DNA of 64,000 bases, taken from sequence record MW250786; one strand, written 5' to 3'. Both the position numbers and the translations under genes were made by a program. The stretch comes from Escherichia phage UPEC06. Each line of letters begins with the position of its first letter. The first letter of the stretch is position 1. Shown here piece after piece: positions 2,251-39,652 of this stretch. The notes under the pieces were generated by a model. The model did not search any database. It had not been told where the DNA came from and saw only the letters and a list, made by a program, of their open reading frames with translations.

Positions 2251-3885
2251 ATGGCTAGACCAACAACACCGATTGTTGTCTTTGCGGCACAAGATGTTAA
2301 CCTTCCTGGCACTGGAAGACCTAACAAATCAAAACCGATTGATGACCTTTTAGCGAAGGGCTATGACAAAGGACAAAAACCAGCGGCAGAGGAATTCAAC
2401 TATATTCTTCACCAATCTGGTGCTTGGCTTAACTGGATCGTAGAAGAGAAGTTCCCTGAAGTTGAAGAAGAATATAAGCGACTGATTCAGGAACTCGAAA
2501 CACGAGTAAACAATCAACTGGAAGTTATTCGTGAAGATGTTGCAAACGTAAGACAATCAGTTGCAACCTTGAGAACTTATGTAGAGCAAACTGTTGCAGA
2601 CATTCGTCGTGAGATCACTGCGGTTGATCAGCGTGTTACTCGTTTGTCTCAAGACTTGGATAATGCTGTTTCCAGATTAAACGCCCGTATTGATGAGCTT
2701 GAACCTCGTTTAGTTCCGATCGGTGCAATTCTTACTTGGGCAGGCCAAACACCTCCGGCGGGATTCTTGGAATGTAATGGACAGGTATACAGTACATCTC
2801 AAAACCCGAAACTTTATCAAGTCCTTGGTAGGAACGTAGTACCTGATTATCGTGGATTGTTCCTTCGTGGCTGGGCGCACGGATCTGGCGCTTACGATCC
2901 TGACTCTGGTCGTGCTTTGGGTTCTATTCAAGGTGATGCGATTCGAAACATTACTGGCGCGATGGGTTACGAAAGTATTCGTACTGACCACGGATATCGT
3001 GAGAGTGGTGCACTTTATACGCAATATAACTCAAACTCAGGTCCTGATCACGATCGTAAAAACCCAGCGGGTGATGTTCGATTTGATGCAAGCCGTGTTG
3101 TTCCGACTGCACCAGAAAACAGACCTAAGAACGTCGCAGTGATGTATATTATCAAGACTGATCAGGCACAAGGTACGGGAAGTCTGTCACCAACTGCACT
3201 TGTTACTACGCCGGACACTATTACAAACCGCGTAGGGTTTACTCAAGGGATTTCTGCTCAGGTTCTCCCTGCAAACTTGGCAAGTCAATACCCTGTGACG
3301 TGGACTTCTCAGAACGGTAATGTTGCAACAGTGGATAGTGCAGGTAACGTAAGATTAACTGGTCCAGGTGAAACTAACATTATCGCCTCTATCTCTACTG
3401 GTATCTCTGCCCAAGTTAAAATAGTTTCATATACACCACTGACAGCAATCAGTATCGGTAGCATACCTAGTGTAGAGGTTAATGATTCCGAGGTTATTCC
3501 TGTTAATAGAACACCTGCTAACTCTAACGAGCCTCTCGTGTATTCTACCAGTAATGCTAACGTCGCTGTTGTAACTCAAAGCGGTTACGTATCTGGTGTT
3601 TCTCCAGGTACAGCGGTAATAACAGTTCGTGGGTCTATCACAGGCATCCAAGCCACAAGACAGGTCACTGTAATTCCTGCAACGATTGTTCAGACCATAG
3701 AGGATGTTCGTTTAGGTCTTGAGCAACAGACGACAATGAATGGCGATGATTATACAAATCCTGTGCGTGCTCCGGCGGGTTGTGTTATTACTGGCGTTGT
3801 ATCAGCAGGTCTTGGGTTAAATCAAGGTTATTATAAACCGATCCAGAAGCGTATATCTGGCGTATGGGTAACGGTGGAGGGTTAA
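2251..3885 (+). CDS. tail fibre protein with phage tail-collar domain and C-terminal Ig-like (Big_2-type) repeats
   Basis: Motif LTWAGQTPPAGFLECNGQ...YQVLG...DYRGLFLRGW typical of tail-collar domain; N-terminal coiled-coil; C-terminal VTWTSQNGNVATVDSAGNV Ig-like repeats. Confidence 0.7.
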   Translation: MARPTTPIVVFAAQDVNLPGTGRPNKSKPIDDLLAKGYDKGQKPAAEEFNYILHQSGAWLNWIVEEKFPEVEEEYKRLIQELETRVNNQLEVIREDVANVRQSVATLRTYVEQTVADIRREITAVDQRVTRLSQDLDNAVSRLNARIDELEPRLVPIGAILTWAGQTPPAGFLECNGQVYSTSQNPKLYQVLGRNVVPDYRGLFLRGWAHGSGAYDPDSGRALGSIQGDAIRNITGAMGYESIRTDHGYRESGALYTQYNSNSGPDHDRKNPAGDVRFDASRVVPTAPENRPKNVAVMYIIKTDQAQGTGSLSPTALVTTPDTITNRVGFTQGISAQVLPANLASQYPVTWTSQNGNVATVDSAGNVRLTGPGETNIIASISTGISAQVKIVSYTPLTAISIGSIPSVEVNDSEVIPVNRTPANSNEPLVYSTSNANVAVVTQSGYVSGVSPGTAVITVRGSITGIQATRQVTVIPATIVQTIEDVRLGLEQQTTMNGDDYTNPVRAPAGCVITGVVSAGLGLNQGYYKPIQKRISGVWVTVEG

Positions 3886-3887
3886 TT

Positions 3888-4400
3888 ATGAGAATGAATA
3901 ACTTCAAGCTTTATACACCGGAAGTTAAATCTTTCGGAGAAGGAGTTCAGTATTTTCAGGATGATAAGGGTCGTGATTTCTACGACTCTCGTGCACTATT
4001 CAAAAAGAAATATGTTGTTTTCTTTGATGAGCATAATATTGTCCGTGGCTGGGCAAAGAGTGAAGAAGTTACCCGTCTTCACCCAGGTGGTTTATCTGTT
4101 GTGGATCTTAATACCCTCCCTAAAGATTTTTCTTTGCAAGGTGGTGTTTGGTCATTCAACGGAAAACAGGTAGTTAAGGCAGACTATGATCCTGCTTTTA
4201 GCACCGCTGCAAGAAAGGCTGGCATTCTGCAAGTGATCGGTTCTGTTATCGTTCCGCTTCAGGATGCTGTTGAATTGGGAGATGCTACAGATGATGAGCT
4301 TGAGAAGTATAACGATCTTCGTAAGATGAGAGTTAAAGTCATGCGTATCCCTGATAGCACCTCCCCTGGTGATATCGACTGGTCAGAGTTCACCTTTTAA
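3888..4400 (+). CDS. tail fibre assembly chaperone (Tfa-like)
   Basis: Resembles Tfa/P2 gpG N-region (FDEHNIVRGWAKSEEVTRLHPGGLSVVDL); start moved to ATG 3888 with GGTGGAGGG RBS, track start 3864 overlaps upstream gene. Confidence 0.6.
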   Translation: MRMNNFKLYTPEVKSFGEGVQYFQDDKGRDFYDSRALFKKKYVVFFDEHNIVRGWAKSEEVTRLHPGGLSVVDLNTLPKDFSLQGGVWSFNGKQVVKADYDPAFSTAARKAGILQVIGSVIVPLQDAVELGDATDDELEKYNDLRKMRVKVMRIPDSTSPGDIDWSEFTF

Positions 4401-4410
4401 CCTTAGATGA

Positions 4411-4428
4411 GTCGGGCTTCGGCCCGAC
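4411..4428 (+). other. GC-rich hairpin after fibre chaperone gene, no U-tract
   Basis: GTCGGGC-ttc-GGCCCGAC perfect stem directly after stop at 4400. Confidence 0.4.
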
Positions 4429-4439
4429 TATGGAGACTT

Positions 4440-4772
4440 ATGATTGTTGATATAATGGCAGTTCTTAAAGCACTTTGGGGTCTTTTAACATTTATTTTGC
4501 TGGGTGCACTAAAGATCTTTTACACCGACTTTAAAAAATTAGAGTCACGTCAAAGCGAGCTTGAAAAAGATGTTCTTCGTTTGAAGGAATCTGCGGTTAC
4601 TAAGGATAGTATCGATGCCATTCTTGACCGTAAGATAAAACATATCACTGATACGATCCAGGATATTAGGACCGATATCACAGATATGCGAAAGGAAGCA
4701 AAAGAAGAAAACCACGCTCTACAGAAGGATATTCGAGAATTACTAAACAAAATTATTGAGAACCGCAAATGA
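4440..4772 (+). CDS. membrane-anchored coiled-coil protein
   Basis: N-terminal hydrophobic helix then charged heptad-like region; start set to ATG 4440 with GGAGA RBS (track start 4407 lies in hairpin). Confidence 0.5.
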   Translation: MIVDIMAVLKALWGLLTFILLGALKIFYTDFKKLESRQSELEKDVLRLKESAVTKDSIDAILDRKIKHITDTIQDIRTDITDMRKEAKEENHALQKDIRELLNKIIENRK

Positions 4773-5227
4773 TTACAGCCATAATATATGGCATTTGTTT
4801 CGTAATCCTTGCTACTCGAAAAGAGAGTGGAACAAAGATAATGGCTGGGCTTTGCCTAGCCTATCTCGTATTGGAGAACCTGATCCTTTGGTTCTTCTCT
4901 ACGCAACAATATTTCGACATCACTCTTTATTTTAATGTTCTCTGGACATTGGATTCGATACTGCTTTTCACTATGGGTTGTACAGTGAAAGGATTACGAC
5001 AAAAACTTATCGTATGCCTAAGTATTCCGTTCATGCTTATTCAAGTGTTTGCAATCCAATATCCAGAATTGTTCCCCTTATGGGTTTACGAATTCGCTCT
5101 TAGAGACGCTCACAAATATTTCATAGAAACCTTTGTGTTCGTTTATTCTTGGAAGGATAATACCGTACCGGAATGGATAAGGACAGCAGTGGTGATATTT
5201 CTGGTGCTCATTGCCCATATGGTATGA
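4769..5227 (+). CDS. multi-pass membrane protein
   Basis: 152 aa with 4-5 hydrophobic segments; ATGA overlap with upstream stop. Confidence 0.5.
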   Translation: MITAIIYGICFVILATRKESGTKIMAGLCLAYLVLENLILWFFSTQQYFDITLYFNVLWTLDSILLFTMGCTVKGLRQKLIVCLSIPFMLIQVFAIQYPELFPLWVYEFALRDAHKYFIETFVFVYSWKDNTVPEWIRTAVVIFLVLIAHMV

Positions 5228-5249
5228 ACATTGATAATGAAGGTGATCT

Positions 5250-5510
5250 ATGTTAAAATTTCTCAAAGACCTCGTTACCTCTGCGGTGGAACCAGATAAA
5301 GCTTCCCATACAAAGTTTTGGTCTAACGTAGGTATGGCTGCTATGACTGCCGTCTTTCTATGGTATGGATTCAACAATACATTGCCTGAATGGTATGTGT
5401 GGCTTTATGCTCCTACGGTAGTGGCTCCACACCTTTTGAGTGATCTCATTAACCTCCGCTGGGGATTATCTTTGAAAAAAGATAAAGGCCCTTCTGACGA
5501 AAACAAGTAA
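5250..5510 (+). CDS. small membrane protein (holin-like topology)
   Basis: 86 aa, two hydrophobic segments, charged C-terminus, RBS-like sequence upstream. Confidence 0.45.
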   Translation: MLKFLKDLVTSAVEPDKASHTKFWSNVGMAAMTAVFLWYGFNNTLPEWYVWLYAPTVVAPHLLSDLINLRWGLSLKKDKGPSDENK

Positions 5511-5522
5511 GAGGAGAAAACT

Positions 5523-8500
5523 GTGTCGTCTAATACTGATATATTGGCACTGGTAAGTACCGAAGCAGATCTTGCTGTTGACCAGATCATTGAAGACTCT
5601 CGAAGACTTCATTTGATCGTCAACGGAACTGCAACAGAACAAGCTGTTACAGAAGATGGTAGCTTAATCCCTAGTGTACGTAAAGCGATAATTGATAACT
5701 TTTATTTTAAAACTCCACCGTTACCGTGGAGAAATGGAAGTTCAGTTATTGAATTCAATCAGTTATATGCATTTACCGATGTAAATGGCAACGTAACTTG
5801 GTGGTATGCCCCAGGTGCAACTACCAGCACTCCTGTCGTTATGCGAGACAGTCCAATCAACGACGGTAAGTTCAGACCTTTCTTCGATAAAGGTAACATT
5901 CAAGAAACTTACGCCCCTATCCTTTCCCCTGTTTTTCGTGGAAACCCTACTGTACCTCTTGCTGCTGAAGGTGATAACTCATTTACTATCGCGAACACAG
6001 CTTGGGTTAGTCGAGAAATAGAAAAAGTACGTGGTGAGGTTCTTGAAGAGTCCAGAGGTGAATTCCAAAACATTATCGTTGCAGATGATGCGAGTCTGAA
6101 AGATCTCTATGTAAGTGGAGAAACCATCTTCACTGGCGACAGGATCGCTGCTCTTGATGCCGAGTTATCTTTAAAAAGATTACGAATGACAGGGACAGAC
6201 GCAGAAATCGCATTTGAACAAAATGGCGTTCCACCCCAGGCAGGGTTAACAAAAAGAACAAATATCAAGCCTTTCCAAGTCACCACTGGTGTTGTTGATA
6301 CCGATAATATAACTGCGAGAGAGATCAAGGTTGGAAATACCTCTGTTTCCACGAATTCTCTTGATGTTGATGGATTCATGCAAGGTGACTATCTTCACTT
6401 AGAGGGTAATGCCAATAACGCAGAAGACCGCCCACAACTGATCGTTGACGGTATTGCGGAAATAAATACTCTTCGTGTGACGAACACCATTGAAGGATTG
6501 AAGGCTGACGTTGAAGGTCTGGATATTAATCCTAACAGCATTGTGGTTGAAAGAACTGCGGAGATTAAGGGAAATACAACCCTTGGTGCAGATCTTGCCG
6601 TTACTGGCAATACGGTATTGAAAAATGTAAGAATCGAAGGTACTCTCACGGGTGCTGGAATCGGTGTTGACGGGAAAGACATTTCCCCTCGTAATGTGAG
6701 TGCAACATCCGTTACTGTGGCAGAGAGCTTAAACATTACTGGACCTACTACGGCTTCCGGCGACGTTACGGTAAACAACCTGACGGTTAATGGAACACTC
6801 AGGGCCGATATCGACTTTGGAACTGCTGCTGTTGAATTCCAAGATCTGACTGTGACTAACAAGGCAACGATCAAGGATCTTGAAATCACCGGAAACCTGA
6901 CGGGAGTTACAGTCTCTGTTGATGGTGAAGCAATCTCCCCTTCTTCGGTGACAACCACAGGAAACATCGATGTTGGTAACAACATGCGTGTTCGTGGTGA
7001 TATTACTCTGGACGGTGAGTTAAGTATCCCAAGCTTAGATACTGGGGACATAACGGCTGCTGCAATTGATGGTGCGAGCCTCTCAGTTAGTGGCGACATT
7101 ACCGCAGGAACAACTTCGACCACAACGGTTAACAATCTTGTAGTCACAGGAACCACTACAGGAATCACTGTAACGGGCAATGTTGACGGACAAGACATTC
7201 TCCCATCCTCTGTAGAAACAACGTCTGTAGTGGCCTCTGAGAGAGTTACAACGGCAAACCTGACATCTACAGGTGACACTCAGGTAAATAACCTGACAAT
7301 TACTGGAACTGTAACAGGATTCGATGTAGATCTTACCGGAAAGGACATTCAGGTTAATACCTTGACGGTTACTCGCGGGTCAACTTTTGACGAGGTTACT
7401 GCTAATAACATAACCAACAATCAAAAGATTACCACAGTAGACCTTCAGGTTACTGGAAACCTGACGAATGCAGACGGTGAACAATTCTTTGCAAACGTCA
7501 CTGGTCAAGATATACTTCCTAATAGTGTGCAGTCTGCAACGTCTGTGAGAACTAAAACGCTACGTGTCGAAGAGACTAGCCTATTGGAAGGTGCTGTTAC
7601 CTTAAATGATGGTTTGACTATCACTGGTGGTAATATCACATCTGTTCAAGGTCAAGCAAGCTTCAATGACGTACAGGTATTTGGATCTCTTCTGGACGCG
7701 AATGGTAATGCCTTAGGGACAGCGGAAAGCATAAACGGTAAAGATATCTCTCCTCGTAGCGTTACTGCTCAAGTTGAGATTCAGACTACTGCAATTGTTG
7801 CTACAGGTCAAGCTGAAGTTGGTTCTTTGATTTCAACTGGACAAGTAATGGCAGGAAGCTTAGAGGTTTCAGGGATAGGTAATATTGGTCAGGTTATTAC
7901 CGACGACGTTCGTGCTGGAAAGGTAACTTCTGGTAACACCGTTATTACTCGTACTGTTGGATCTAGCGATCCTGCTCTTGAAGTTCGTGGACCAGGTGAG
8001 ATTCAGGGTGACCTTAATGTAACCGGAACTGTAACTGGTAACATTGACCTTAGCTCTCAAGACGTTAACGTTGCTTCAATGACCTCAACGGGAACAGTAA
8101 ATGCCCTTTCCATTGAGTCTCGTACATCGGTAACTGGATTGTCTGGTACATTCGGTGAAGATTATGAAGGTGCACCTACCTATGGTATAACTTCTCTTTC
8201 CGGCGCAAACATCAACAAGAACCTTCGAGTTGGTGGAAACCTGACTGTTGTTGGTAACATCTCTGGCAATATCGACTTATCTGGAAAGGCGATCGAGCCT
8301 GCATCTTTGTCTACCACGACAGCTACGTTAACGACGGCGAACATAACAGACCTGACTGTAACTGGTCAGTTTAATATCCCGACTGTACCGTTAAATGTTC
8401 AATCCCTTAGTTCTGAAAACGCTATTTCCGCAAGCAAGTTCAGCACCACACCAAAAGAAGTAAGCACCACCTCTTCTTCTTACATCCCAGACGGCTCAAC

Positions 8501-8756
8501 GAGCATATATAACGTAAACGTTATAAATGATGTTGAAGTGAAAGCGCCGATTGGCCTGTTGAGTTCAGGAAAAGGTGAGTCGGTATTCCTCTTCTTTGAA
8601 CAGGATGGTACTGGTGGACATGCGGTAACATTCGGATCGGAGTTTGTTGTGCATGGTACTGAAACCATCAAAACAGATGCAAACACTGTATCGGTAGTTA
8701 ACATGGTTTATCGTGGCAAAGGCCCATTGATTGACGTATTCATCACTCGTCGCTAA
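5523..8756 (+). CDS. long tail fibre protein with internal periodic repeats
   Basis: 1077 aa, GTG start after GAGGAG; many recurrences of GxDISPxSV...TGN.T.. units; Ser/Thr/Gly/Val/Asn-rich fibre-like composition; terminator follows. Confidence 0.75.
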   Translation: MSSNTDILALVSTEADLAVDQIIEDSRRLHLIVNGTATEQAVTEDGSLIPSVRKAIIDNFYFKTPPLPWRNGSSVIEFNQLYAFTDVNGNVTWWYAPGATTSTPVVMRDSPINDGKFRPFFDKGNIQETYAPILSPVFRGNPTVPLAAEGDNSFTIANTAWVSREIEKVRGEVLEESRGEFQNIIVADDASLKDLYVSGETIFTGDRIAALDAELSLKRLRMTGTDAEIAFEQNGVPPQAGLTKRTNIKPFQVTTGVVDTDNITAREIKVGNTSVSTNSLDVDGFMQGDYLHLEGNANNAEDRPQLIVDGIAEINTLRVTNTIEGLKADVEGLDINPNSIVVERTAEIKGNTTLGADLAVTGNTVLKNVRIEGTLTGAGIGVDGKDISPRNVSATSVTVAESLNITGPTTASGDVTVNNLTVNGTLRADIDFGTAAVEFQDLTVTNKATIKDLEITGNLTGVTVSVDGEAISPSSVTTTGNIDVGNNMRVRGDITLDGELSIPSLDTGDITAAAIDGASLSVSGDITAGTTSTTTVNNLVVTGTTTGITVTGNVDGQDILPSSVETTSVVASERVTTANLTSTGDTQVNNLTITGTVTGFDVDLTGKDIQVNTLTVTRGSTFDEVTANNITNNQKITTVDLQVTGNLTNADGEQFFANVTGQDILPNSVQSATSVRTKTLRVEETSLLEGAVTLNDGLTITGGNITSVQGQASFNDVQVFGSLLDANGNALGTAESINGKDISPRSVTAQVEIQTTAIVATGQAEVGSLISTGQVMAGSLEVSGIGNIGQVITDDVRAGKVTSGNTVITRTVGSSDPALEVRGPGEIQGDLNVTGTVTGNIDLSSQDVNVASMTSTGTVNALSIESRTSVTGLSGTFGEDYEGAPTYGITSLSGANINKNLRVGGNLTVVGNISGNIDLSGKAIEPASLSTTTATLTTANITDLTVTGQFNIPTVPLNVQSLSSENAISASKFSTTPKEVSTTSSSYIPDGSTSIYNVNVINDVEVKAPIGLLSSGKGESVFLFFEQDGTGGHAVTFGSEFVVHGTETIKTDANTVSVVNMVYRGKGPLIDVFITRR

Positions 8757-8758
8757 TA

Positions 8759-8785
8759 GAGGCCCTTCGGGGCCTTTTCTTTTTA
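8759..8785 (+). terminator. Rho-independent terminator after long fibre gene
   Basis: AGGCCC-ttcg-GGGCCT hairpin plus TTTTCTTTTT. Confidence 0.7.
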
Positions 8786-10031: not shown

Positions 10032-10066
10032 AGAAAAGGCGCTCAAATGAGCGCCTTTATTTTTAT
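10032..10066. terminator. bidirectional terminator at convergent strand switch
   Basis: AAAGGCGCTC-aaat-GAGCGCCTTT hairpin flanked by A-run and T-run, between + gene ending 10031 and - gene ending 10080. Confidence 0.7.
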
Positions 10067-11773: not shown

Positions 11774-12361
11774 TCAAGGACGTTTTGGTGGACTAACGAC
11801 ACCTTTTTTAGATAAAGGTAATTCGTCTGCATCTTTTCCACGAAGAGATTCTAGCCACTCATCTAAAGACAGGGGTACTTTACCATCACCTTTGGACCAC
11901 ACAGACAAGCAATACAGATCGTATGCAGATGGACCTCGATCACCTTTGTCACCATTCGGCCCTTTTAAGCTCTCCAACCAATCCTTTTCGTTCAGTGGGA
12001 TAGCACCTGGATCTTCTTGATGAAGAACTCTTAGGTATGTTTCATAAGCAGACTCTCCACGAGGACCCATTTGACCCTTCTCACCTTGTGGCCCTTTTGC
12101 ATAATCTGCGTACTTAGATTCCAGATATGCAGACTTCACACCTTCAGGGGCAACGGAAACCTTATACAATGACCAAGCTAACAGAGCTATCCAACAAGCA
12201 AACAGTGCAAGCGGATAAGGGATCATTGAAGTAAAGAATGACAGAGCTAAAATTACAACCTTGTTCTTGTGATTACGACGGAAAGCGATGATCACAGGGG
12301 CTAACCAGATAGCAAAGATAACCCACGCAGATAAGATAAACAACCAACTAATGTATTCCAT
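11774..12361 (-). CDS. membrane protein with short collagen-like G-X-Y repeats
   Basis: Two N-terminal hydrophobic segments; GPQGEKGQMGPRGES and GPNGDKGDRGPS triplet runs. Confidence 0.5.
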   Translation of the reverse strand: MEYISWLFILSAWVIFAIWLAPVIIAFRRNHKNKVVILALSFFTSMIPYPLALFACWIALLAWSLYKVSVAPEGVKSAYLESKYADYAKGPQGEKGQMGPRGESAYETYLRVLHQEDPGAIPLNEKDWLESLKGPNGDKGDRGPSAYDLYCLSVWSKGDGKVPLSLDEWLESLRGKDADELPLSKKGVVSPPKRP

Positions 12362-16839: not shown

Positions 16840-17217
16840 TTATACTCCAAATGTGGATTTGATTTCAGCAATAACCTCATGCACATTGTTTTCGTTTACT
16901 TCAAATGTGTAGGACGTTGGTTTAAGGAACGTCTGAGGTGAAACATTAACAAAGAATTCAAATTCATCATCAAAAATTTCAAAGTATTTTCCCGGTGTTG
17001 ATTCTTGACTTTTGAAAACAGAACCATCTTCCATAGTAACAGAAGAAACAGATTTTTCACCAAGGGTGTATGTTTTTAACTCATCAACAACGAAACTAGG
17101 ACCGTGACGACGTAGTATTTCAACCATAGTTCGGTTGGCCCCGCAAATACCTGCCCGCTTAATAAATAACTCTTCACACCGAGGATTGAGAATATAAGTT
17201 TTTCCTACTTGCATCAT
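16840..17217 (-). CDS. hypothetical protein, paralogue family member 3
   Basis: MxVGKTYxLNP...HGPxF...EDG...E.EF.FF...ETI.xIKSTF shared with the two upstream genes. Confidence 0.55.
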   Translation of the reverse strand: MMQVGKTYILNPRCEELFIKRAGICGANRTMVEILRRHGPSFVVDELKTYTLGEKSVSSVTMEDGSVFKSQESTPGKYFEIFDDEFEFFVNVSPQTFLKPTSYTFEVNENNVHEVIAEIKSTFGV

Positions 17218-17227
17218 AACAACCCCC

Positions 17228-17587
17228 TTATGATAAGTTAAATGTGGATTTGATCAGGTCGATAGTTTCTTGTGCGTTTTGCTCAGATACTGACACCTGG
17301 ATAATTTTAAGATCACTGACCTCTTCGAAGTATTTGAACTCGGATTCACGAAGTTCAAAGTACATTGCCCCGCAGCCCACACTGAATGAATCACACCCTA
17401 CAGCACCATCTTCTGTTGTGATGTTATTAACATACATATCACCTTCGATCATACTCATGTTGTTAACAATAAATCGCGGCCCGTGCTCATCCAGAAAAGA
17501 AACAATCTCGTGATTGTAACTTGGGTCAGCCTTAATAAATTCTTCCACGAATTTTGGATTAAGTTTATAAGTTTTACCCACTTCCAT
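17228..17587 (-). CDS. hypothetical protein, paralogue family member 2
   Basis: Clear similarity to 17599-17973 product; AAGGAG RBS. Confidence 0.55.
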   Translation of the reverse strand: MEVGKTYKLNPKFVEEFIKADPSYNHEIVSFLDEHGPRFIVNNMSMIEGDMYVNNITTEDGAVGCDSFSVGCGAMYFELRESEFKYFEEVSDLKIIQVSVSEQNAQETIDLIKSTFNLS

Positions 17588-17598
17588 TTTTGTTCTCC

Positions 17599-17973
17599 TT
17601 ACGCTAGGTTAAAGGTAGCTTTAATCAAGTCTACGGTTTCTTGTGCATTACTACGAGAGACGGCAACTTGAACGATAACAGGATCTTCATCTTCCCCGAC
17701 TTCTTTAAAGAAGGGAAATTCACTCTCTGCAAGTTCAAAGTATACACCCTTGTTACATTCGCAGCCGTGAAGACTGTCACTACCTAAAGTACCATCTTCA
17801 AATATGACATTGTTAACGTATGTAACATTATCATAAACGTGGGTGGTGTTGACAACAAATTTAGGACCGTGTTTATAAAGAAGGTCAGCCAATTCTTGAT
17901 TGTAGCTAGGGTCCATATTGATAAAAGCTTTTTCTAAGTCTTGATTAAGAATGTAAGTTTTTCCGATTTCCAT
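17599..17973 (-). CDS. hypothetical protein, paralogue family member 1
   Basis: Start moved to ATG 17973 (MEIGKTYILNQ) with GAGGAG RBS; track N-extension lacks RBS. Confidence 0.55.
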   Translation of the reverse strand: MEIGKTYILNQDLEKAFINMDPSYNQELADLLYKHGPKFVVNTTHVYDNVTYVNNVIFEDGTLGSDSLHGCECNKGVYFELAESEFPFFKEVGEDEDPVIVQVAVSRSNAQETVDLIKATFNLA

Positions 17974-18047
17974 CTTTGTTCTCCTCTTCAGTTGATGGAT
18001 ACATCTTAGTTGATGTGGATATGTCTTGTCAATAGCTTTTTGCACAT

Positions 18048-18075
18048 AAAAGAAAACCACCCCGAAGGGTGGTTT
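18048..18075 (-). terminator. Rho-independent terminator after DNA polymerase gene
   Basis: AACCACCC-cgaa-GGGTGGTT hairpin followed by T-run on - strand. Confidence 0.65.
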
Positions 18076-23463: not shown

Positions 23464-24180
23464 TTATTTGTTGTATTGATAAATTGCTTCAGCCAAGCCC
23501 CGTGGGGTTAATGACCGGATCATCTTAGTTCTTGCTGACTTACCCCCCAACTTATTCTGCTGATCTGACCAACCAGGTGCAACAGGAACCGGAGAGGTTT
23601 TTGGAATTATAAACCCATTCCCTGTCCAAAGTCCAGTCTTTTTAGGATAAGCATCCCGTGGTTTAATGTACTGAGGAAAATAAGGGTTAACATCATTTAC
23701 CGGAAGATAACCACCATATTCCCAAGGGTTGAAATATACCGTAGGCTTTCGCCATTGTCCAGCTAAAACACTAACGGGGTTCTCGATCATGTAAGGACAA
23801 TCAAAAACAAATTCCGCAAGCCAAGCTGCAATCTTTGCAGTTCTTACCGCCTTGATCTGGAAGAAAGGATCTTTTGCTTTCTTTGATGCAAAGTGACGCG
23901 AACCACTGACAGCCATATCAGTACATGGAGGGTAGGCAAGGATCAGGTCCGGTGATGGCAATCCTAAGTTCTCTACATTTTCCATCCATTCAATATCGAT
24001 AAAAGCGTTAACGTAAGTGATGTTGGGATGAATTTCCTTTACACCTTCATAATCCCCGTGATCAGCATCGTCATAGTTGAAGCAGTAGCATTTGTGCCCT
24101 GCCTTCGCCCAGGGAAGAACATCAATCCCTGAACCAGAAAAGAGACTCCAGATAATCTTTTTATTCATCGTAGCATCCAA
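23464..24180 (-). CDS. short DNA cytosine-C5 methyltransferase-like protein (no obvious TRD)
   Basis: Motif I-like LFSGSGI (FxGxG), motif IV-like PPCT (PCQ variant), motif VI-like ENP; only 238 aa. Confidence 0.45.
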   Translation of the reverse strand: MDATMNKKIIWSLFSGSGIDVLPWAKAGHKCYCFNYDDADHGDYEGVKEIHPNITYVNAFIDIEWMENVENLGLPSPDLILAYPPCTDMAVSGSRHFASKKAKDPFFQIKAVRTAKIAAWLAEFVFDCPYMIENPVSVLAGQWRKPTVYFNPWEYGGYLPVNDVNPYFPQYIKPRDAYPKKTGLWTGNGFIIPKTSPVPVAPGWSDQQNKLGGKSARTKMIRSLTPRGLAEAIYQYNK

Positions 24181-27444: not shown

Positions 27445-28200
27445 CACCGTTATGTTCAGCAAGGTTCGCTACTCCTTGCCCGTTCTCTAAGAACTGCTAC
27501 ATGTCCCCATGCAGACCAGACTATATCTTCAACCCGTAAAACAGGTGCTATGCACTTCGAGCCGCTTGGCCCTACTCTACTCGGTTCAAGAGCTTTGCTC
27601 TTGCCTTTCGATAGTCGTTGCTCCTTCCTCTCAACCGCTTTGTAATCTCTCGAACTGTATCGCGATGAATACCAAAATATTGTGCAATTTCTTTCTGAAG
27701 CATGGTTGTTTTAATGACCATATCATAAACTTCTTTTTCGAAATCATCATCGAATCGGTTTGGGTTTCTTCTTCCCGCTTTCCAACCGTGATCAACATTT
27801 TGCTTTGTAGTCATCCATTCTAGATTACTATCTGCGTTATTTTTCCTGTCTCTATCTTTATGATTAACGACAGGTAGATTATAAGGATTTTCTACATAAT
27901 GTTCAGCCACAAGTTGATGTATAAATCTCCTAGTGACCTTACCATTCTTACTTAATGAAACTCTTAGATACCCTGCACTATTCGTGTCTGGCTTTAGTTT
28001 CTTAAGTTTTCGGTACACATCTCCGCGTCTGGTAATTATGTATTGTTCAAAACCCTTTATTCTTTTCATTTCAACCTCCCTTTTAATGATAACAAAGAGG
28101 TTGAGAGGCTTGGATCAGGATTATCTGTTCTAGACTTCCCCTGAATTCACATAGTATTTAGTCGAGGCATTACTGCCAAGGCTGGCTAGACTTAATGTTT
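27445..28200 (-). mobile_element. putative group I intron (~756 nt) carrying an HNH homing endonuclease ORF
   Basis: Upstream exon ends in U; intron nt 15-20 GCCAGC can pair with exon GCUGGU (P1 with U.G); intron ends in G; phase-0 join restores Walker A; internal HNH ORF. Confidence 0.55.
27572..28069 (-). CDS. HNH homing endonuclease
   Basis: HNH motif VVNHKDRDRKNNADSNLEWMTTKQN, basic helical C-terminus, strong GGGAGG RBS; lies inside putative intron. Confidence 0.7.
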   Translation of the reverse strand: MKRIKGFEQYIITRRGDVYRKLKKLKPDTNSAGYLRVSLSKNGKVTRRFIHQLVAEHYVENPYNLPVVNHKDRDRKNNADSNLEWMTTKQNVDHGWKAGRRNPNRFDDDFEKEVYDMVIKTTMLQKEIAQYFGIHRDTVREITKRLRGRSNDYRKARAKLLNRVE

Positions 28201-29136
28201 ACCAGCACCGATGAAGTAACCTTCACCTGGACGACGACCCAAGGTAAGCTTGGTCATGGTGGGCCAAGGGAACTTCTTGCCGAGTTTAGGGATCTCATGT
28301 GCCTTTTCGCGGAACTGTGAATAAGTCGAGAAACCATCAGGCACATATTCTTTTGGCTTCATTGCAGCCCAAAACAACTGATCAGAAAGACCTTTGTTAT
28401 ACATATCGCAAGGGTCCATATCTTCTGGAATATCCACGACCTTCATTTGTGGAATTACAGAGTATACCGCTGCAACTGCATCTTTACCTTTCATGATCCC
28501 TTTGGCCTTCTCTGCTTCTGTCGCACGGTCAGCATCGAAAGCTACGATAATCTCTTCAAACTTACTCAGAAGCTTATAGTTATTCTTCTGTGATAAGTTT
28601 TGCACGGCATTTGATGTACCGTTAGAGATAGATACAACTGTGAAGTTTGGTTTACGGGTGGAACCATCCTTCGGTTTGTACTTCTCTGTCAATACCTGCC
28701 ACAAGATTGCAGCATCGTATTCACCTTCAGTGATAAAGATCATACGTTTGGAAGACTTATTTGCACCTTCCAGCCCAAACATATCACAAGCCACAGATTG
28801 GAAACCAATAGTTGTAAAGTGACCTTTCTGTTGCTTAGGGATCGTAAGATCACGCTTCTTAAAACCTACAACCTTACCTTCCAATGTGTACGGAAAATAA
28901 TGCGCCTCTGGTGTCATACCGTCTTTAGCTGACAACTTGGTACGAATACCAAATCGTTTAGCTGTCTTTTCGTCGATACCACGCTCAGGGATACTTTTAC
29001 ACGGATAAGTCAATACGTCTTCAACTGTTTCTTCCACACGAGACACACCACCACCATAATTACGTGCTACTGAAGCTTTAGGATTTTTATGTCCAAACTT
29101 ATAACCGCCAAACAGACTTTCGCCAATAGTGCTCAT
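28201..29136 (-). CDS. primase-helicase, exon 1 (TOPRIM primase domain)
   Basis: TOPRIM motifs IFITEGEYDAAIL and IIVAFDADRATE; C-terminal KLTLGRRPGEGYFIGAG resembles the DnaB/gp4 segment before Walker A; no N-terminal Cys4 zinc ribbon. Confidence 0.6.
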
Positions 29137-31829: not shown

Positions 31830-32019
31830 TATTTAGTTCCTCATATTCATATGGGTAGAGTAGATATCCTTTGTTGTCTTTTAGTGCTACAGCTATAACA
31901 CTCTCAAGGTAAAAATCATCGTCATAGTGCATTTCTTCAATTACAAGAATATCACCTTTCTTTGGATGATCATCGCGATCACTGAAATCATTTAGTAGTT
32001 TTATTTTTACGTTTTTCAT
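31822..32019 (-). CDS. hypothetical protein
   Basis: 65-aa ORF. Confidence 0.35.
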   Translation of the reverse strand: MKNVKIKLLNDFSDRDDHPKKGDILVIEEMHYDDDFYLESVIAVALKDNKGYLLYPYEYEELNND

Positions 32020-32200
32020 ATAACATCTCCGCTGCTACAAGGGATAAGATCATTGCCATATACATTACAATGGAAGTCACACTGATCTGAATGAAAACCT
32101 CATCGGTTACATGATCAAAGTAAGCATTCTTTACATATCTTACGCCCACGAGCCAAAATACCATTACTACAGCAAATGTCAGTATCATACGTTTTATCAT
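31988..32200 (-). CDS. small two-TM membrane protein (holin candidate)
   Basis: 70 aa, two hydrophobic helices, charged C-terminus, directly downstream of cell-wall hydrolase gene. Confidence 0.45.
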   Translation of the reverse strand: MIKRMILTFAVVMVFWLVGVRYVKNAYFDHVTDEVFIQISVTSIVMYMAMILSLVAAEMLYEKRKNKTTK

Positions 32201-32712
32201 TTCTTTTTCTCCTCTTTATCTTTATAAAAGATGTGATTTTCTATGGTAACTGTTCTTTTCAGAAGTTTACGCCACACAGGCTTAACCTTCTTAGTGTGAT
32301 AATACAAAGATCCATGCGTTGGGTCAAACCTTTTATACAAAACCTCATTATTTTTTATCTTATGTACAAACTTAGAGATGCTGAGCGCACCCTCCCAGGA
32401 GTCTTTATCTGTTATGCTATAAGAGGATTTAGTTAATGTCCATGAAAACTGAGAGGCTTGATACACAACTCCTTTCATTGTTCTCGGGAATTTATCATTT
32501 TTCATCCGATTCATTGTAACGAAGGCAACAGCCATTTGACCATTTATCGTCTCGCCTCGGGACTCCATATAGACATTACAGGCTAAGGCATTTACAGAAT
32601 TATCCTTTTTCGTACATTTATGAATAACCTTCTGTGCTCTCTCTTTGGCATAAGTGACGCCTGGTGCCAGAGACAGAGTACAAATCAAACCACATAAAAC
32701 TAATTTTTTCAT
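32197..32712 (-). CDS. secreted cell-wall hydrolase (SleB/Hydrolase_2-like), endolysin candidate
   Basis: N-terminal signal peptide; NALACNVYMESRGETINGQMAVAFVTMNRM resembles the SleB-type hydrolase core. Confidence 0.5.
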   Translation of the reverse strand: MKKLVLCGLICTLSLAPGVTYAKERAQKVIHKCTKKDNSVNALACNVYMESRGETINGQMAVAFVTMNRMKNDKFPRTMKGVVYQASQFSWTLTKSSYSITDKDSWEGALSISKFVHKIKNNEVLYKRFDPTHGSLYYHTKKVKPVWRKLLKRTVTIENHIFYKDKEEKKK

Positions 32713-39088: not shown

Positions 39089-39652
39089 ATGAGTCAAGAT
39101 AAAGAGTTAGCCATTGCGATATCCGTAGCTGCTTCTGCCCATGTTGACCAAGTAGATAAAGGGGGGAATATCTATATTCTTCATCCTTTGCAGGTGATGC
39201 AAACATTGCAGCAAAAGGGAAGGGAAGATTTAATGGCAGCAGGAGTTTTGCATGATGTGATTGAAGATACTGAAATCACTATGGAACACCTCTTTAAAAA
39301 GGGGATTTCAGAAAGAACCTTAGTGATTGTCGATGCAGTGACAAAGAAACGTAAGCAATCTTCATCTGATTACCTAGAGGGGATTTTAGAGAGTGAGGGT
39401 GCTTGTCATGTTAAGCTTGCGGATCTTAAACACAACTTAGATATTCTGCGAACTTGTAGCACCACAGAAAAAGACTTGCAACGGGTCAGGAAGTATGTAA
39501 CAATGCACTTGTTGATTACGGAGATGGTTGATTGGTATGAAAGTATCGGAAGGTATCTCGATTATTGTGATTCTTTTGCCTATTGTAGCTATCTCGACGA
39601 ACGTAAAGAATTTGTTCAGAAACTTATTAAAAAATGGAAGGAGTTTAAATGA
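39089..39652 (+). CDS. HD-domain phosphohydrolase, SpoT/RelA-hydrolase-like (putative (p)ppGpp hydrolase)
   Basis: Signature AAGVLHDVIEDT with upstream His; 187 aa consistent with a stand-alone hydrolase domain. Confidence 0.55.
   Translation: MSQDKELAIAISVAASAHVDQVDKGGNIYILHPLQVMQTLQQKGREDLMAAGVLHDVIEDTEITMEHLFKKGISERTLVIVDAVTKKRKQSSSDYLEGILESEGACHVKLADLKHNLDILRTCSTTEKDLQRVRKYVTMHLLITEMVDWYESIGRYLDYCDSFAYCSYLDERKEFVQKLIKKWKEFK

What the first reader, a model, noticed from the sequence alone, without database searches (positions are those of the whole stretch)
4407..5510. Three membrane-protein genes embedded among tail fibre genes
Between the fibre chaperone and the long fibre gene lie a membrane-anchored coiled-coil protein (4440-4772), a multi-pass membrane protein (4769-5227) and an 86-aa two-TM protein (5250-5510). 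Membrane proteins inside a fibre module are unusual; they could be lysis components (T4 holin t is fibre-adjacent), superinfection-exclusion proteins or fibre-anchoring factors. A GC-rich hairpin without a U-tract (4411-4428) precedes them.
Basis: inference. Interest (0 to 1): 0.35.

Follow-up and report, generated by a model that had tools for sequence, protein, structure and literature searches.

The report
Probable lysis genes among fibre genes
Three small membrane-protein genes sit between the tail-fibre genes of this rV5-like phage; they are conserved, are not detected in virions of a relative, and the third belongs to a family that occupies the hole-forming (holin) position in other phages' lysis cassettes, so it is a testable candidate for the holin that rV5-like phages have lacked.

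Summary
Three co-oriented genes lie between the fibre chaperone and the long fibre gene: A (4440-4772), B (4769-5227) and C (5250-5510). A stable hairpin without a U-tract (4410-4429) precedes them.

The window is a Vequintavirinae myophage. The order chaperone-A-B-C-fibre is conserved across its genera. In rV5 itself, B is replaced by a fibre paralogue. All three genes are under purifying selection. In the relative CB7, virion mass spectrometry found the flanking structural proteins but none of the three.

- **C** is an N-in/C-in two-helix protein (phrog_1322). It belongs to a large family. In Mu-like and other small phages, its members sit directly after endolysins of at least five unrelated enzyme families and before Rz-like spanins, which is the holin slot.
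- **A** is an N-out/C-in membrane-tethered cytoplasmic coiled coil. It has the architecture of the Mu gp25 releasin, but homology was not shown.
- **B** is a confident six-helix membrane bundle with no known relatives.

Best reading (about 0.5): a late lysis-control cassette with C as the holin and A and B as modulators. Rivals are fibre-assembly factors, superinfection exclusion, and a second holin candidate beside a SleB-like hydrolase at 31988-32712. Interest is moderate.

The parts
3864..4400 (+). Tail-fibre assembly chaperone (context; upstream neighbour of the cassette)
   Evidence: Pfam Caudo_TAP 2.4e-11. phrog_136 3.7e-40. Its CB7 homologue was not detected in virions.
4410..4429 (+). 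Stable GC-rich hairpin with a UUCG loop and no U-tract, in the chaperone-A intergenic region. Possibly a partial attenuator or mRNA-stabilising element that sets the dosage of A-B-C (inferred).
   Evidence: -17 kcal/mol, z -3.4, and 0 of 200 shuffles fold as well. A hairpin of different sequence sits at the same position in phiTE and CB7; it is absent in PVP-SE1 and Av-05. The terminator scan does not call it.
4440..4772 (+). Gene A: 110-aa single-pass membrane protein. Predicted N-out/C-in, with an ~80-residue cytoplasmic coiled coil.
   Evidence: phrog_5345 1.3e-35. In all 15 family members the N-tail carries 0 K/R and 1-3 D/E, and 2-5 K/R follow the TM segment; heptad periodicity is present. 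Always follows the chaperone. 17 synonymous to 0 non-synonymous changes.
4769..5227 (+). Gene B: 152-aa six-helix integral membrane protein. Translationally coupled to A through an ATGA overlap.
   Evidence: phrog_7451 1.4e-61. AF2 pLDDT 91.4, pTM 0.83, six helices. No significant PDB match. Only uncharacterised viral look-alikes with TM 0.64-0.69. D62 and E120 are invariant. No match in rV5-like genomes.
5250..5510 (+). Gene C: 86-aa two-helix membrane protein, N-in/C-in, with a mixed-charge C-terminal tail. Candidate holin.
   Evidence: phrog_1322 2.1e-29. 171 representative clusters in the family. A profile built only from large-myovirus members scores the lysis-cassette members at 35-52 bits. 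Homologues lie directly downstream of M15_4, M15_3, GH19, Amidase_2, GH24 and C93 hydrolases and upstream of Rz-like spanins. Topology from charge counts and the AF2 model.
5523..8756 (+). Long tail-fibre gene with a GTG start (context; downstream neighbour)
   Evidence: phrog_4549 7.6e-249. The CB7 homologue was confirmed in virions by MS.
8758..8777 (+). First terminator-like hairpin with a T-tract downstream of the cassette, so A-B-C are probably co-transcribed with the fibre gene
   Evidence: Terminator scan.
31988..32200 (-). Rival holin candidate: a 70-aa two-TM protein with a basic C-tail. It overlaps the stop of the SleB-like hydrolase.
   Evidence: Sequence. Positional equivalent of CB7_82, which was proposed as a class II holin in PMC7344957.
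32197..32712 (-). SleB-like cell-wall hydrolase with an N-terminal signal-peptide-like segment. It is the only hit in the PHROG 'lysis' category among the 44 window ORFs of 105-330 aa between 10 and 64 kb that were scanned.
   Evidence: NCBIfam spore_SleB 2.5e-17. phrog_938 endolysin 3.1e-26. 58% identical to CB7_83. Present in 1269 phage records.

Best explanation
A-B-C is a conserved, non-structural, late-expressed membrane-protein cassette that controls host lysis. It is carried inside the tail-fibre operon.

**Proposed mechanism**
1. The three genes are transcribed with the fibre genes. No terminator-like hairpin with a T-tract lies between the cassette and position 8758. The hairpin at 4410-4429 may reduce or stabilise the downstream message. 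This step is inferred.
2. C inserts in the inner membrane as an N-in/C-in helical hairpin and accumulates there. At a critical level it permeabilises or depolarises the membrane. That lets the soluble endolysin (encoded outside the window) reach the cell wall, and the spanin pair near the terminase then disrupts the outer membrane. C's holin role is inferred from the position of its homologues in lysis cassettes. It has not been shown.
3. A is a membrane-tethered cytoplasmic coiled coil. B is a six-helix membrane protein translationally coupled to A. Both are proposed to modulate when or how C fires, as antiholin-like or releasin-like accessories. B is dispensable in the rV5 lineage. This step is the weakest.
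For: **Real, conserved genes**
- Purifying selection on all three.
- The order chaperone-A-B-C-fibre holds in all 24 non-rV5 Vequintavirinae-type loci examined besides the window.
- An A-like/B-like/C-like trio is also present in Aeromonas Plateaulakevirus.

**Probably not virion components**
- CB7 mass spectrometry found CB7_29, 30, 31, 36 and 37, but not 32-35.

**C occupies the holin slot elsewhere**
- Ralstonia RS138: late activator, endolysin, C-family gene, Rz-like spanin.
- Pseudomonas Bise: Mor, M15 endolysin, C-family gene, then a spanin with an embedded lipoprotein.
- In 80 IMG/VR loci, 22 have a peptidoglycan hydrolase as the ORF directly upstream. These hydrolases belong to Peptidase_M15_4/VanY, Peptidase_M15_3, Glyco_hydro_19, Amidase_2, Phage_lysozyme and Peptidase_C93.
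- The downstream ORF is usually a 130-225-aa protein with an N-terminal TM segment.
- Homology is solid: 35-52 bits with a profile built only from large-myovirus members, and reciprocal tblastn hits.

**C has holin-like form**
- 86 aa, two helices, N-in/C-in by charge counts, hydrophilic charged tail.

**The subfamily lacks an identified holin**
- The rV5 paper found no holin homologue and nominated gp129 by TM count only (PMC3606486).
- The CB7 paper calls holin identification difficult (PMC7344957).
- All experimentally confirmed holins are expressed from late transcripts (PMC9239132).

**Link between A and C**
- At least 18 of the small-phage cassettes also carry an 80-150-aa protein with an N-terminal TM segment and a coiled coil.
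- Some of these match Mu gp25 (5e-7 to 6e-3), and the A-family profile ranks this class highest among about 430 neighbouring ORFs.
- The Mu gp25 releasin has the same N-out/C-in architecture (PMC9239132).

**Precedent (own knowledge):** T4 holin t follows fibre chaperone gene 38, and T7 holin 17.5 follows fibre gene 17.
Against: - No endolysin or spanin is adjacent in this genome.
- C matches no curated holin family in Pfam or NCBIfam.
- C is unusually conserved for a holin: 60-85% identity across genera, more than the flanking fibres.
- C-family genes also occur outside lysis cassettes, for example in Stenotrophomonas Mendera and in long three-TM forms on 120-150 kb contigs.
- A second plausible holin sits next to the SleB-like hydrolase at 31988-32200.
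- A always follows the fibre chaperone, even where C lies elsewhere (phi92-like and Phapecoctavirus phages). That pattern fits a fibre-related role equally well.
- A's homology to DUF2730 failed: no hmmscan hit and hhalign probability of 25-69% over short stretches.
- C's helices are only weakly hydrophobic.
- Small membrane proteins are easily missed by virion mass spectrometry.
- No experiment exists on any of the three proteins.
Confidence: 0.5

Rival explanations
1. The three proteins are membrane-associated assembly or attachment factors for the tail fibres. They would be a platform at the inner membrane on which the chaperone and fibres are matured or joined to baseplates. They are non-structural because they are left behind.
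For: - The cassette never leaves the fibre/baseplate module despite rearrangements.
- A always directly follows the chaperone.
- In rV5 the B position is taken by a fibre paralogue.
- A's long coiled coil would face the cytoplasm, where fibres assemble.
- The chaperone CB7_32 is likewise absent from CB7 virions.
Against: - C homologues sit in lysis cassettes of phages whose fibre genes are far away.
- The proteins are conserved independently of highly variable fibres and receptors.
- To my knowledge, no known fibre-assembly pathway needs integral membrane proteins.
Confidence: 0.17
2. The cassette is a superinfection-exclusion or membrane-protection module that blocks DNA entry or receptor access for competing phages.
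For: - From my own knowledge, small inner-membrane proteins next to receptor-binding genes are often exclusion factors (T5 llp, cor of T1/phi80-like phages, T4 imm and sp).
- PHROGs files phrog_1322 under 'moron, auxiliary metabolic gene and host takeover'.
Against: - No match to any PADLOC defence model.
- None of the three sequences shows a lipoprotein signal.
- Conservation is independent of host genus and receptor: E. coli, Klebsiella, Pectobacterium, Cronobacter and Aeromonas.
- In Mu-like phages the C homologue lies in the late lysis cassette behind Mor/C.
- Another window ORF (11774-12361, minus strand) looks more like an Imm-type protein. This rests on memory and was not tested.
Confidence: 0.1
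3. The true holin is the 70-aa two-TM protein at 31988-32200 (minus strand), next to the SleB-like hydrolase. C-family proteins would then be accessory lysis regulators or unrelated membrane proteins.
For: - The 70-aa ORF overlaps the hydrolase stop.
- It has two TM segments and a strongly basic C-tail.
- PHROGs calls the hydrolase an endolysin.
- The CB7 authors proposed the positional equivalent CB7_82.
Against: - The pair lies in the leftward replication-gene block, not a late operon. Confirmed holins are late genes.
- The hydrolase carries a signal-peptide-like N-terminus and may not need a holin.
- The SleB-like protein is an accessory 'cell wall hydrolase' in T5-like phages, which have a separate endolysin (own knowledge for T5).
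- The small ORF is not detectably conserved even with CB7.
- The two candidates are not mutually exclusive.
Confidence: 0.15
4. A is the inner-membrane spanin subunit (Rz-like).
For: - Weak PHROG hits to Rz-like spanins at E about 2e-3.
- An N-terminal TM segment followed by a coiled coil.
Against: - The charge distribution predicts N-out/C-in, the opposite of Rz.
- No embedded or adjacent lipoprotein ORF was seen; the only overlapping ORF, at 4756-4935, has no lipobox.
- A separate Rz/Rz1 pair near the terminase is reported as conserved in Certrevirus, rV5 and PVP-SE1.
Confidence: 0.03

Closest known systems
Class II holins (for example S21 of phage 21), and the fibre-adjacent holins T4 t and T7 gp17.5
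   Same: - C is small (86 aa), has two helices, is N-in/C-in and has a hydrophilic charged tail.
- It sits in a late structural operon next to fibre genes, as T4 t and T7 17.5 do (own knowledge).
- Its homologues sit between endolysin and spanin.
   Different: - No sequence match to any curated holin family.
- No dual-start motif was evident.
- It is much more conserved than typical holins.
- Hole formation has not been tested.
Uncharacterised lysis-cassette membrane proteins of Mu-like phages (Ralstonia RS138 ORF27, the Pseudomonas Bise 80-aa protein); phrog_1322; distant Pfam DUF2644
   Same: - True homologues of C, scoring 35-52 bits.
- Shared signature: SHTKxWxN(I/V)G ... SK(F/L)(I/L)SxR(W/Y)G.
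   Different: - Those genes lie in classic cassettes behind Mor/C.
- The window gene lies in a fibre module, with A and B upstream.
- Only 7 of 86 relatives touch DUF2644, and the window protein does not.
Mu gp25 releasin (DUF2730; PMC9239132)
   Same: - A has the same design: a very short acidic periplasmic N-tail, one TM segment, K/R at the junction and a helical cytoplasmic domain of about 80 aa.
- Proteins of this design accompany C-family genes in Mu-like cassettes.
   Different: - No DUF2730 hit for any of 16 A-family members.
- hhalign probability of 25%.
- A's cytoplasmic domain is charge-neutral rather than anionic.
- A is not within five genes of an endolysin.
PVP-SE1 gp44/43/42, phiTE 238-240, CB7 33-35, rV5 gp31/gp29 (published 'hypothetical membrane proteins')
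   Same: - Orthologues in the same order and position.
   Different: - None. These are the same genes, annotated only as membrane proteins with no function assigned.

Membership tests
Holin (functional class), for C | Small integral membrane protein with at least one TM segment and a hydrophilic, charged C-terminus | tested here: met
   86 aa. AF2 helices at 20-41 and 47-71. The N-region is net positive, the loop net negative and the tail carries 5 K/R and 3 D/E. Hydrophobicity is only moderate.
Holin (functional class), for C | [quoted passage not shown] | tested here: not met
   In the window, C lies between B and a fibre gene. The feature is met for homologues in RS138, Bise and 22 IMG/VR loci.
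Holin (functional class), for C | Expressed from a late transcript | not testable with these tools
   Inferred only. C is co-oriented with the baseplate and fibre genes, and no terminator-like site with a T-tract lies between it and 8758.
Holin (functional class), for C | Lethal membrane permeabilisation that can be triggered prematurely by depolarisation | not testable with these tools
   Needs expression plus dinitrophenol/cyanide triggering, as done in PMC9239132.
Curated holin families (Pfam Phage_holin_*, NCBIfam holins), for C and B | Significant profile match | tested here: not met
   No holin family at E<=1 for C, for B, or for 20 and 86 C relatives.
phrog_1322 / C family | Profile match over the full length, with the conserved SHTKxW...LRWG signature | tested here: met
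   E 2.1e-29 over residues 1-81. All 86 sampled relatives are phrog_1322. Signature seen.
Pfam DUF2644, for C | Profile match | tested here: not met
   The window protein has no hit at E<=1. Only 7 of 86 distant relatives hit, with a best E-value of 6.3e-5.
Releasin / DUF2730 (Mu gp25), for A | N-terminal TM segment with N-out/C-in topology and a basic junction | tested here: met
   In all 15 family members the N-tail has 0 K/R and at least 1 D/E, and 2-5 K/R lie within 15 residues after the TM segment. This is a prediction by the positive-inside rule only.
Releasin / DUF2730 (Mu gp25), for A | Sequence membership of PF10805 | tested here: not met
   hmmscan of 16 A-family members at E<=10 lists no DUF2730 hit. 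hhalign against a gp25-type alignment gives probability 25%. phmmer with gp25 against A members gives E 0.1-3.
Releasin / DUF2730 (Mu gp25), for A | Gene within about five genes downstream of the endolysin | tested here: not met
   A follows the fibre chaperone. No endolysin lies nearby.
i-spanin (Rz-like), for A | N-in/C-out topology with a periplasmic coiled coil, plus a partner outer-membrane lipoprotein gene embedded, overlapping or adjacent | tested here: not met
   The predicted topology is the opposite. The listed overlapping ORFs show no lipobox. The PHROG Rz-like hits are only E about 2e-3. A separate spanin pair is reported in relatives.
Virion structural protein, for A, B and C | Detected in purified particles | tested here: not met
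   Published CB7 ESI-MS/MS lists 26 virion proteins, including both flanking fibre proteins but not CB7_33-35. Caveat: small membrane proteins are hard to detect. The part of the rV5 list I read does not name gp29 or gp31, and parts 2-3 were not read.
Anti-phage defence / superinfection exclusion models | Match to a known defence or exclusion protein model | tested here: not met
   PADLOC gave no hit for B or C and only a chance-level hit for A.
phrog_7451 (and precomputed Pfam PF26221), for B | Full-length profile match | tested here: met
   phrog_7451 at 1.4e-61 over residues 1-152. All 38 database relatives carry a precomputed PF26221 hit. That model is absent from the Pfam copy I could scan, and I could not establish its name.

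The most novel reading that the evidence does not exclude
phrog_1322 (the C family) is an unrecognised, very widespread holin family with at least 171 clusters at 50% identity. It would supply the missing holin of Vequintavirinae, Stephanstirmvirinae and Plateaulakevirus. It would work with a membrane-tethered cytoplasmic coiled-coil partner (A here, gp25-like proteins in Mu-like phages) as a recurrent two-part lysis-timing device. B would be a lineage-specific third component.
Probability: 0.3. Interest if true: 0.6.

Novelty: new variant of a known kind. Interest (0 to 1): 0.45.

Why it matters
rV5-like, PVP-SE1-like and phi92-like myophages are among the most often isolated and most used therapeutic coliphages. 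Their genome papers report no confident holin.

This work ties a universally conserved 86-aa protein in their fibre module to the endolysin-X-spanin slot of Mu-like phages. That turns an annotation gap into a one-gene experiment.

If confirmed, it would:
- add a new holin family to the annotation databases;
- explain how lysis timing is set in these phages;
- give a second setting in which to study releasin-like tethered coiled-coil proteins.

If refuted, the cassette remains a conserved non-virion membrane module of the fibre operon with no known function. That would be interesting for fibre assembly in its own right.

Tried and rejected
- **Curated family scans.** Pfam, NCBIfam and PADLOC scans of A, B and C gave only coiled-coil noise or nothing.
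- **A as a DUF2730 releasin homologue.** This was tested three ways and homology was not shown:
  - hmmscan of family members;
  - phmmer and hmmsearch against cassette neighbours;
  - hhalign against two gp25-position alignments.

  Even those two control alignments do not recognise each other. Only 2 of 10 members of the 'YVRREDxIR' group touch DUF2730, at E 0.024.
- **A as an i-spanin.** Rejected on topology and on the lack of a lipoprotein partner.
- **Fold searches with the confident B model.** These gave only generic helical-bundle similarity:
  - Foldseek against PDB, best E 0.6;
  - uncharacterised viral proteins in BFVD.

  The afdb50 library was not available.
- **Genome context of distant C relatives by exact-protein look-up.** Only contigs of about 5 kb or less came back, most under 2 kb. 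The broad 86-sequence alignment was too diverse for a pattern scan. A narrower alignment worked.
- **B outside the large-myovirus lineage.** B-family members were not found.
- **Literature checks.**
  - CRISPRi-ART included the rV5-like phage EdH4 but gave no data on these genes.
  - The phage Tn-seq preprint concerns phiKZ.
  - UE-M6 holin is an unrelated podovirus protein.
  - PVP-SE1 and phi92 primary papers are not held.
- **Promoter-like matches upstream of B and C.** They are no more frequent than in shuffled sequence, 18 found against 22 expected, so I do not interpret them.
Full report
**What the window is.** The region 3800-5700 is 96% identical in DNA to Escherichia phages A5-4, A7_1, A73, W70 and vB_EcoM-LTH01. 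These are 137-145 kb myophages filed under Vequintavirinae. At the protein level the nearest annotated relatives are Certrevirus phages: phiTE, CB7 and CR3.

- ORF listing and sequence show three co-oriented genes: A at 4440-4772 (110 aa), B at 4769-5227 (152 aa) and C at 5250-5510 (86 aa).
- They lie between a Caudo_TAP fibre chaperone (3864-4400) and a 1077-aa fibre gene (5523-8756).
The annotated, conserved start is 4440, which is preceded by GGAG.
- The stop of A overlaps the start of B (ATGA). C and the fibre gene each have their own Shine-Dalgarno sequence.
- Each protein matches its own PHROG family at 1e-35 to 1e-61.
- Against near-identical relatives the changes are almost all synonymous (A 17:0, B 12.5:4.5, C 14:1 against each of two near-identical relatives). 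Against phiTE, pN is 0.12-0.23 while pS is saturated. These are real genes under purifying selection.
- The hairpin is real: an 8-bp stem with a UUCG loop, -17 kcal/mol, z -3.4.
- phiTE and CB7 carry a hairpin of different sequence at the same spot. PVP-SE1 and Av-05 have none.
- The first terminator-like hairpin with a T-tract downstream is at 8758-8777, after the fibre gene.

**Anatomy of the proteins.**

*Protein A*
- It has a 4-8-residue N-tail carrying only acidic charges, then one hydrophobic segment, then 2-5 Lys/Arg within 15 residues. This holds in all 15 family members examined.
- The rest is a heptad-periodic charged helix of about 80 residues.
- By the positive-inside rule this gives N-out/C-in, so the coiled coil is cytoplasmic.

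*Protein B*
- It models with high confidence (pLDDT 91.4, pTM 0.83) as six helices.
- It has invariant membrane-embedded Asp62 and Glu120.
- The viral structure library returns uncharacterised 146-161-aa proteins with TM 0.64-0.69.

*Protein C*
- It models as a short N-terminal helix plus two long helices (pLDDT 73).
- The N-region is net positive, the inter-helix loop is net negative, and an invariant Arg follows helix 2.
- This gives an N-in/C-in hairpin with a hydrophilic tail of mixed charge.

**Conservation and context in large myophages.**
- The order wedge, fibre, chaperone, A, B, C, fibre is kept in all 24 non-rV5 Vequintavirinae-type loci I compared with the window. These cover Seunavirus (PVP-SE1), Certrevirus, Avunavirus, Mydovirus-like and metagenomic contigs.
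- C is the best conserved of the three (60-85% identity), more so than the flanking fibres.
- In rV5 the order is fibre gp33, chaperone gp32, A (gp31), fibre paralogue gp30, C (gp29), fibre gp28. B is therefore replaced by a second short fibre.
- B is not detectable by tblastn in rV5-like genomes.
- In phi92-like and Phapecoctavirus phages, C lies between a lateral fibre and the baseplate wedge. An A-like protein again follows the chaperone, 3.7 kb away.
- Aeromonas Plateaulakevirus has A-like and C-like genes, with an unannotated B-like ORF between them.
- All published annotations call these proteins hypothetical or membrane proteins.

**Are they virion proteins?**
- The CB7 paper (PMC7344957) reports ESI-MS/MS of purified virions. 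It found 26 proteins, including CB7_29, 30, 31, 36 and 37, which flank the cassette. It did not find the chaperone CB7_32 or CB7_33-35.
- The rV5 proteome is shallow at 19 proteins, and the parts I read do not name gp29 or gp31.
The usual caveat applies that small membrane proteins are under-detected.

**The key lead: C belongs to a lysis-cassette family.**
- A profile of C relatives retrieves 171 representative clusters from a 1.8-billion-protein library.
- The shared signature is SHTKxWxN(I/V)G ... SK(F/L)(I/L)SxR(W/Y)G. Some members carry an extra N-terminal TM segment.
- All 86 sampled members are phrog_1322, and 7 weakly touch Pfam DUF2644.

*Cultured phages*
- In Ralstonia RS138 the member lies between the late activator/endolysin and the Rz-like spanin.
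- In Pseudomonas Bise it lies between Mor plus a Peptidase_M15_4 endolysin and a spanin that carries an embedded lipobox ORF.

*IMG/VR contigs*
- A pattern scan gave 204 loci, of which 80 were kept.
- In 22 of the 80 the ORF directly upstream is a recognisable peptidoglycan hydrolase, and in 2 more one lies two ORFs downstream.
- Pfam confirms Peptidase_M15_4/VanY, Peptidase_M15_3, Glyco_hydro_19, Amidase_2, Phage_lysozyme and Peptidase_C93.
- The downstream ORF is typically a 130-225-aa protein with an N-terminal TM segment, often with the CGLDADGLRLW motif.

*Strength of the inference*
- A small two-TM protein that travels with endolysins of many unrelated enzyme classes is the classic signature of a holin.
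- The link to the window protein is not a stretch. A profile built only from large-myovirus members scores the cassette members at 35-52 bits, and tblastn is reciprocal.

**Why this matters for the subfamily.**
- The rV5 paper found a lysozyme (gp89) but no holin homologue. It nominated gp129 purely on having two TM segments.
- The CB7 paper found a spanin pair next to the terminase, conserved in rV5 and PVP-SE1. It called holin identification difficult and nominated CB7_82.
- The BASEL annotators noted that holins could not always be found, and they left the C homologues as hypothetical.
- The Mu lysis paper stresses that all experimentally confirmed holins are expressed from late transcripts. 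C fits this by position. The rival below does not.

**What about A?**
- In the Mu-like cassettes, an 80-150-aa protein with an acidic N-tail, one TM segment and a coiled coil commonly lies one to three genes after the C-family gene.
- Some of these match Mu gp25, the DUF2730 releasin, at 5e-7 to 6e-3.
- Another group shares a YVRREDxIR motif, and 2 of its 10 members weakly touch DUF2730.
- Mu gp25 is an N-out/C-in membrane-tethered cytoplasmic protein needed to release its SAR endolysin. DUF2730 proteins also accompany soluble endolysins (PMC9239132).
- A has the same design, and the A-family profile ranks exactly this class first among about 430 neighbouring ORFs. The E-values are only 0.008-0.3.
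- hmmscan and hhalign do not establish homology.
- I therefore claim resemblance in architecture and in company, not membership.
- A's invariable position after the chaperone equally suits a fibre-related role.

**The rival inside the window.**
- A SleB-like hydrolase (32197-32712, minus strand) has a signal-peptide-like N-terminus. A 70-aa two-TM ORF with a basic tail (31988-32200) overlaps its stop.
- Among the 44 window ORFs of 105-330 aa between 10 and 64 kb that I scanned, this hydrolase is the only hit in the PHROG 'lysis' category.
- The pair lies in the leftward block with polymerase, primase/helicase and methylase genes.
- The hydrolase is probably exported without a holin.
- Homologous 'cell wall hydrolases' occur in 1269 phage records. 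These include rV5-likes (next to rIIA) and T5-likes, which have a different endolysin.
- I rate this pair as a genuine second candidate that does not exclude C.

**Verdict.**
- The cassette is a conserved, apparently non-virion membrane module already visible, but unexplained, in published genomes.
- The best-supported mechanism is lysis control, with C as the holin. Confidence is about 0.5 for the cassette and somewhat higher for C alone.
- A and B are accessory by inference.
- This is a new variant of a known kind. Interest is moderate, because it makes the missing-holin question for a major group of therapeutic phages directly testable.

Noticed in passing
window 31988-32712 (- strand): A SleB-like cell-wall hydrolase with a signal-peptide-like N-terminus. 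A 70-aa two-TM ORF with a basic tail overlaps its stop. This is a second endolysin/holin-like pair, located in the replication-gene block.
   Followed up: partly
window 11774-12361 (- strand): A 195-aa protein. Its N-terminal TM region carries a motif (WLAPVIIAFRRNHKNK...ALLAWSL) that reminds me of T4 Imm-type superinfection-immunity proteins; this rests on memory and was not tested. Collagen-like GPQGEKGQMGPRGES and GPNGDKGDRGPS repeats follow. It has weak PHROG tail-fibre hits.
   Followed up: no
window 4410-4429 vs L004/L007 (phiTE, CB7): The intergenic hairpin is kept at the same position with a different stem sequence (GTCGGGC/GCCCGAC versus GGCCGGG/CCCGGCC). This suggests selection on the structure. 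PVP-SE1 and Av-05 lack it.
   Followed up: partly
L006 (rV5) 7216-8259: In rV5 a second short tail-fibre paralogue (gp30; 42% identical to gp33 according to PMC3606486) occupies exactly the slot that gene B holds in other genera.
   Followed up: partly
L010 (Aeromonas phage 2L372X) about 5511-5951: An unannotated ORF of about 146 aa, multi-pass and B-like, lies in the gap between the annotated A-like (075) and C-like (074) genes.
   Followed up: partly
window 16840-18060 (- strand): Three tandem paralogous genes all match phrog_622 (unknown function).
   Followed up: no
window 10035-10058: A perfect bidirectional terminator-like hairpin (10 bp, T-tracts on both sides). It lies between the rightward structural block and the leftward early block. 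A further terminator-like site is at 16-36.
   Followed up: no
window 27572-28069 (-), 23464-24180 (-), 39089-39652 (+), 28192-29136 (-): An HNH endonuclease, a DNA methyltransferase, an HD-type phosphohydrolase and a primase/helicase fragment, identified by PHROGs in the scan for lysis genes.
   Followed up: no
B (window 4769-5227) and A (4440-4772): B has invariant acidic residues inside its helices (D62 and E120; also E36). A has a near-invariant Lys10 at the outer end of its TM segment. A charge pairing between the two translationally coupled proteins is possible.
   Followed up: no
L077-L106 (IMG/VR contigs of 120-150 kb): A long (158-167 aa) three-TM form of the C family occurs in large, apparently human-associated phage contigs among very small ORFs. 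No recognisable hydrolase is nearby.
   Followed up: no
window 6395-7279 (- strand): A 294-aa antisense ORF lies inside the long fibre gene. It is probably a by-product of the repetitive composition of the fibre gene rather than a real gene.
   Followed up: no
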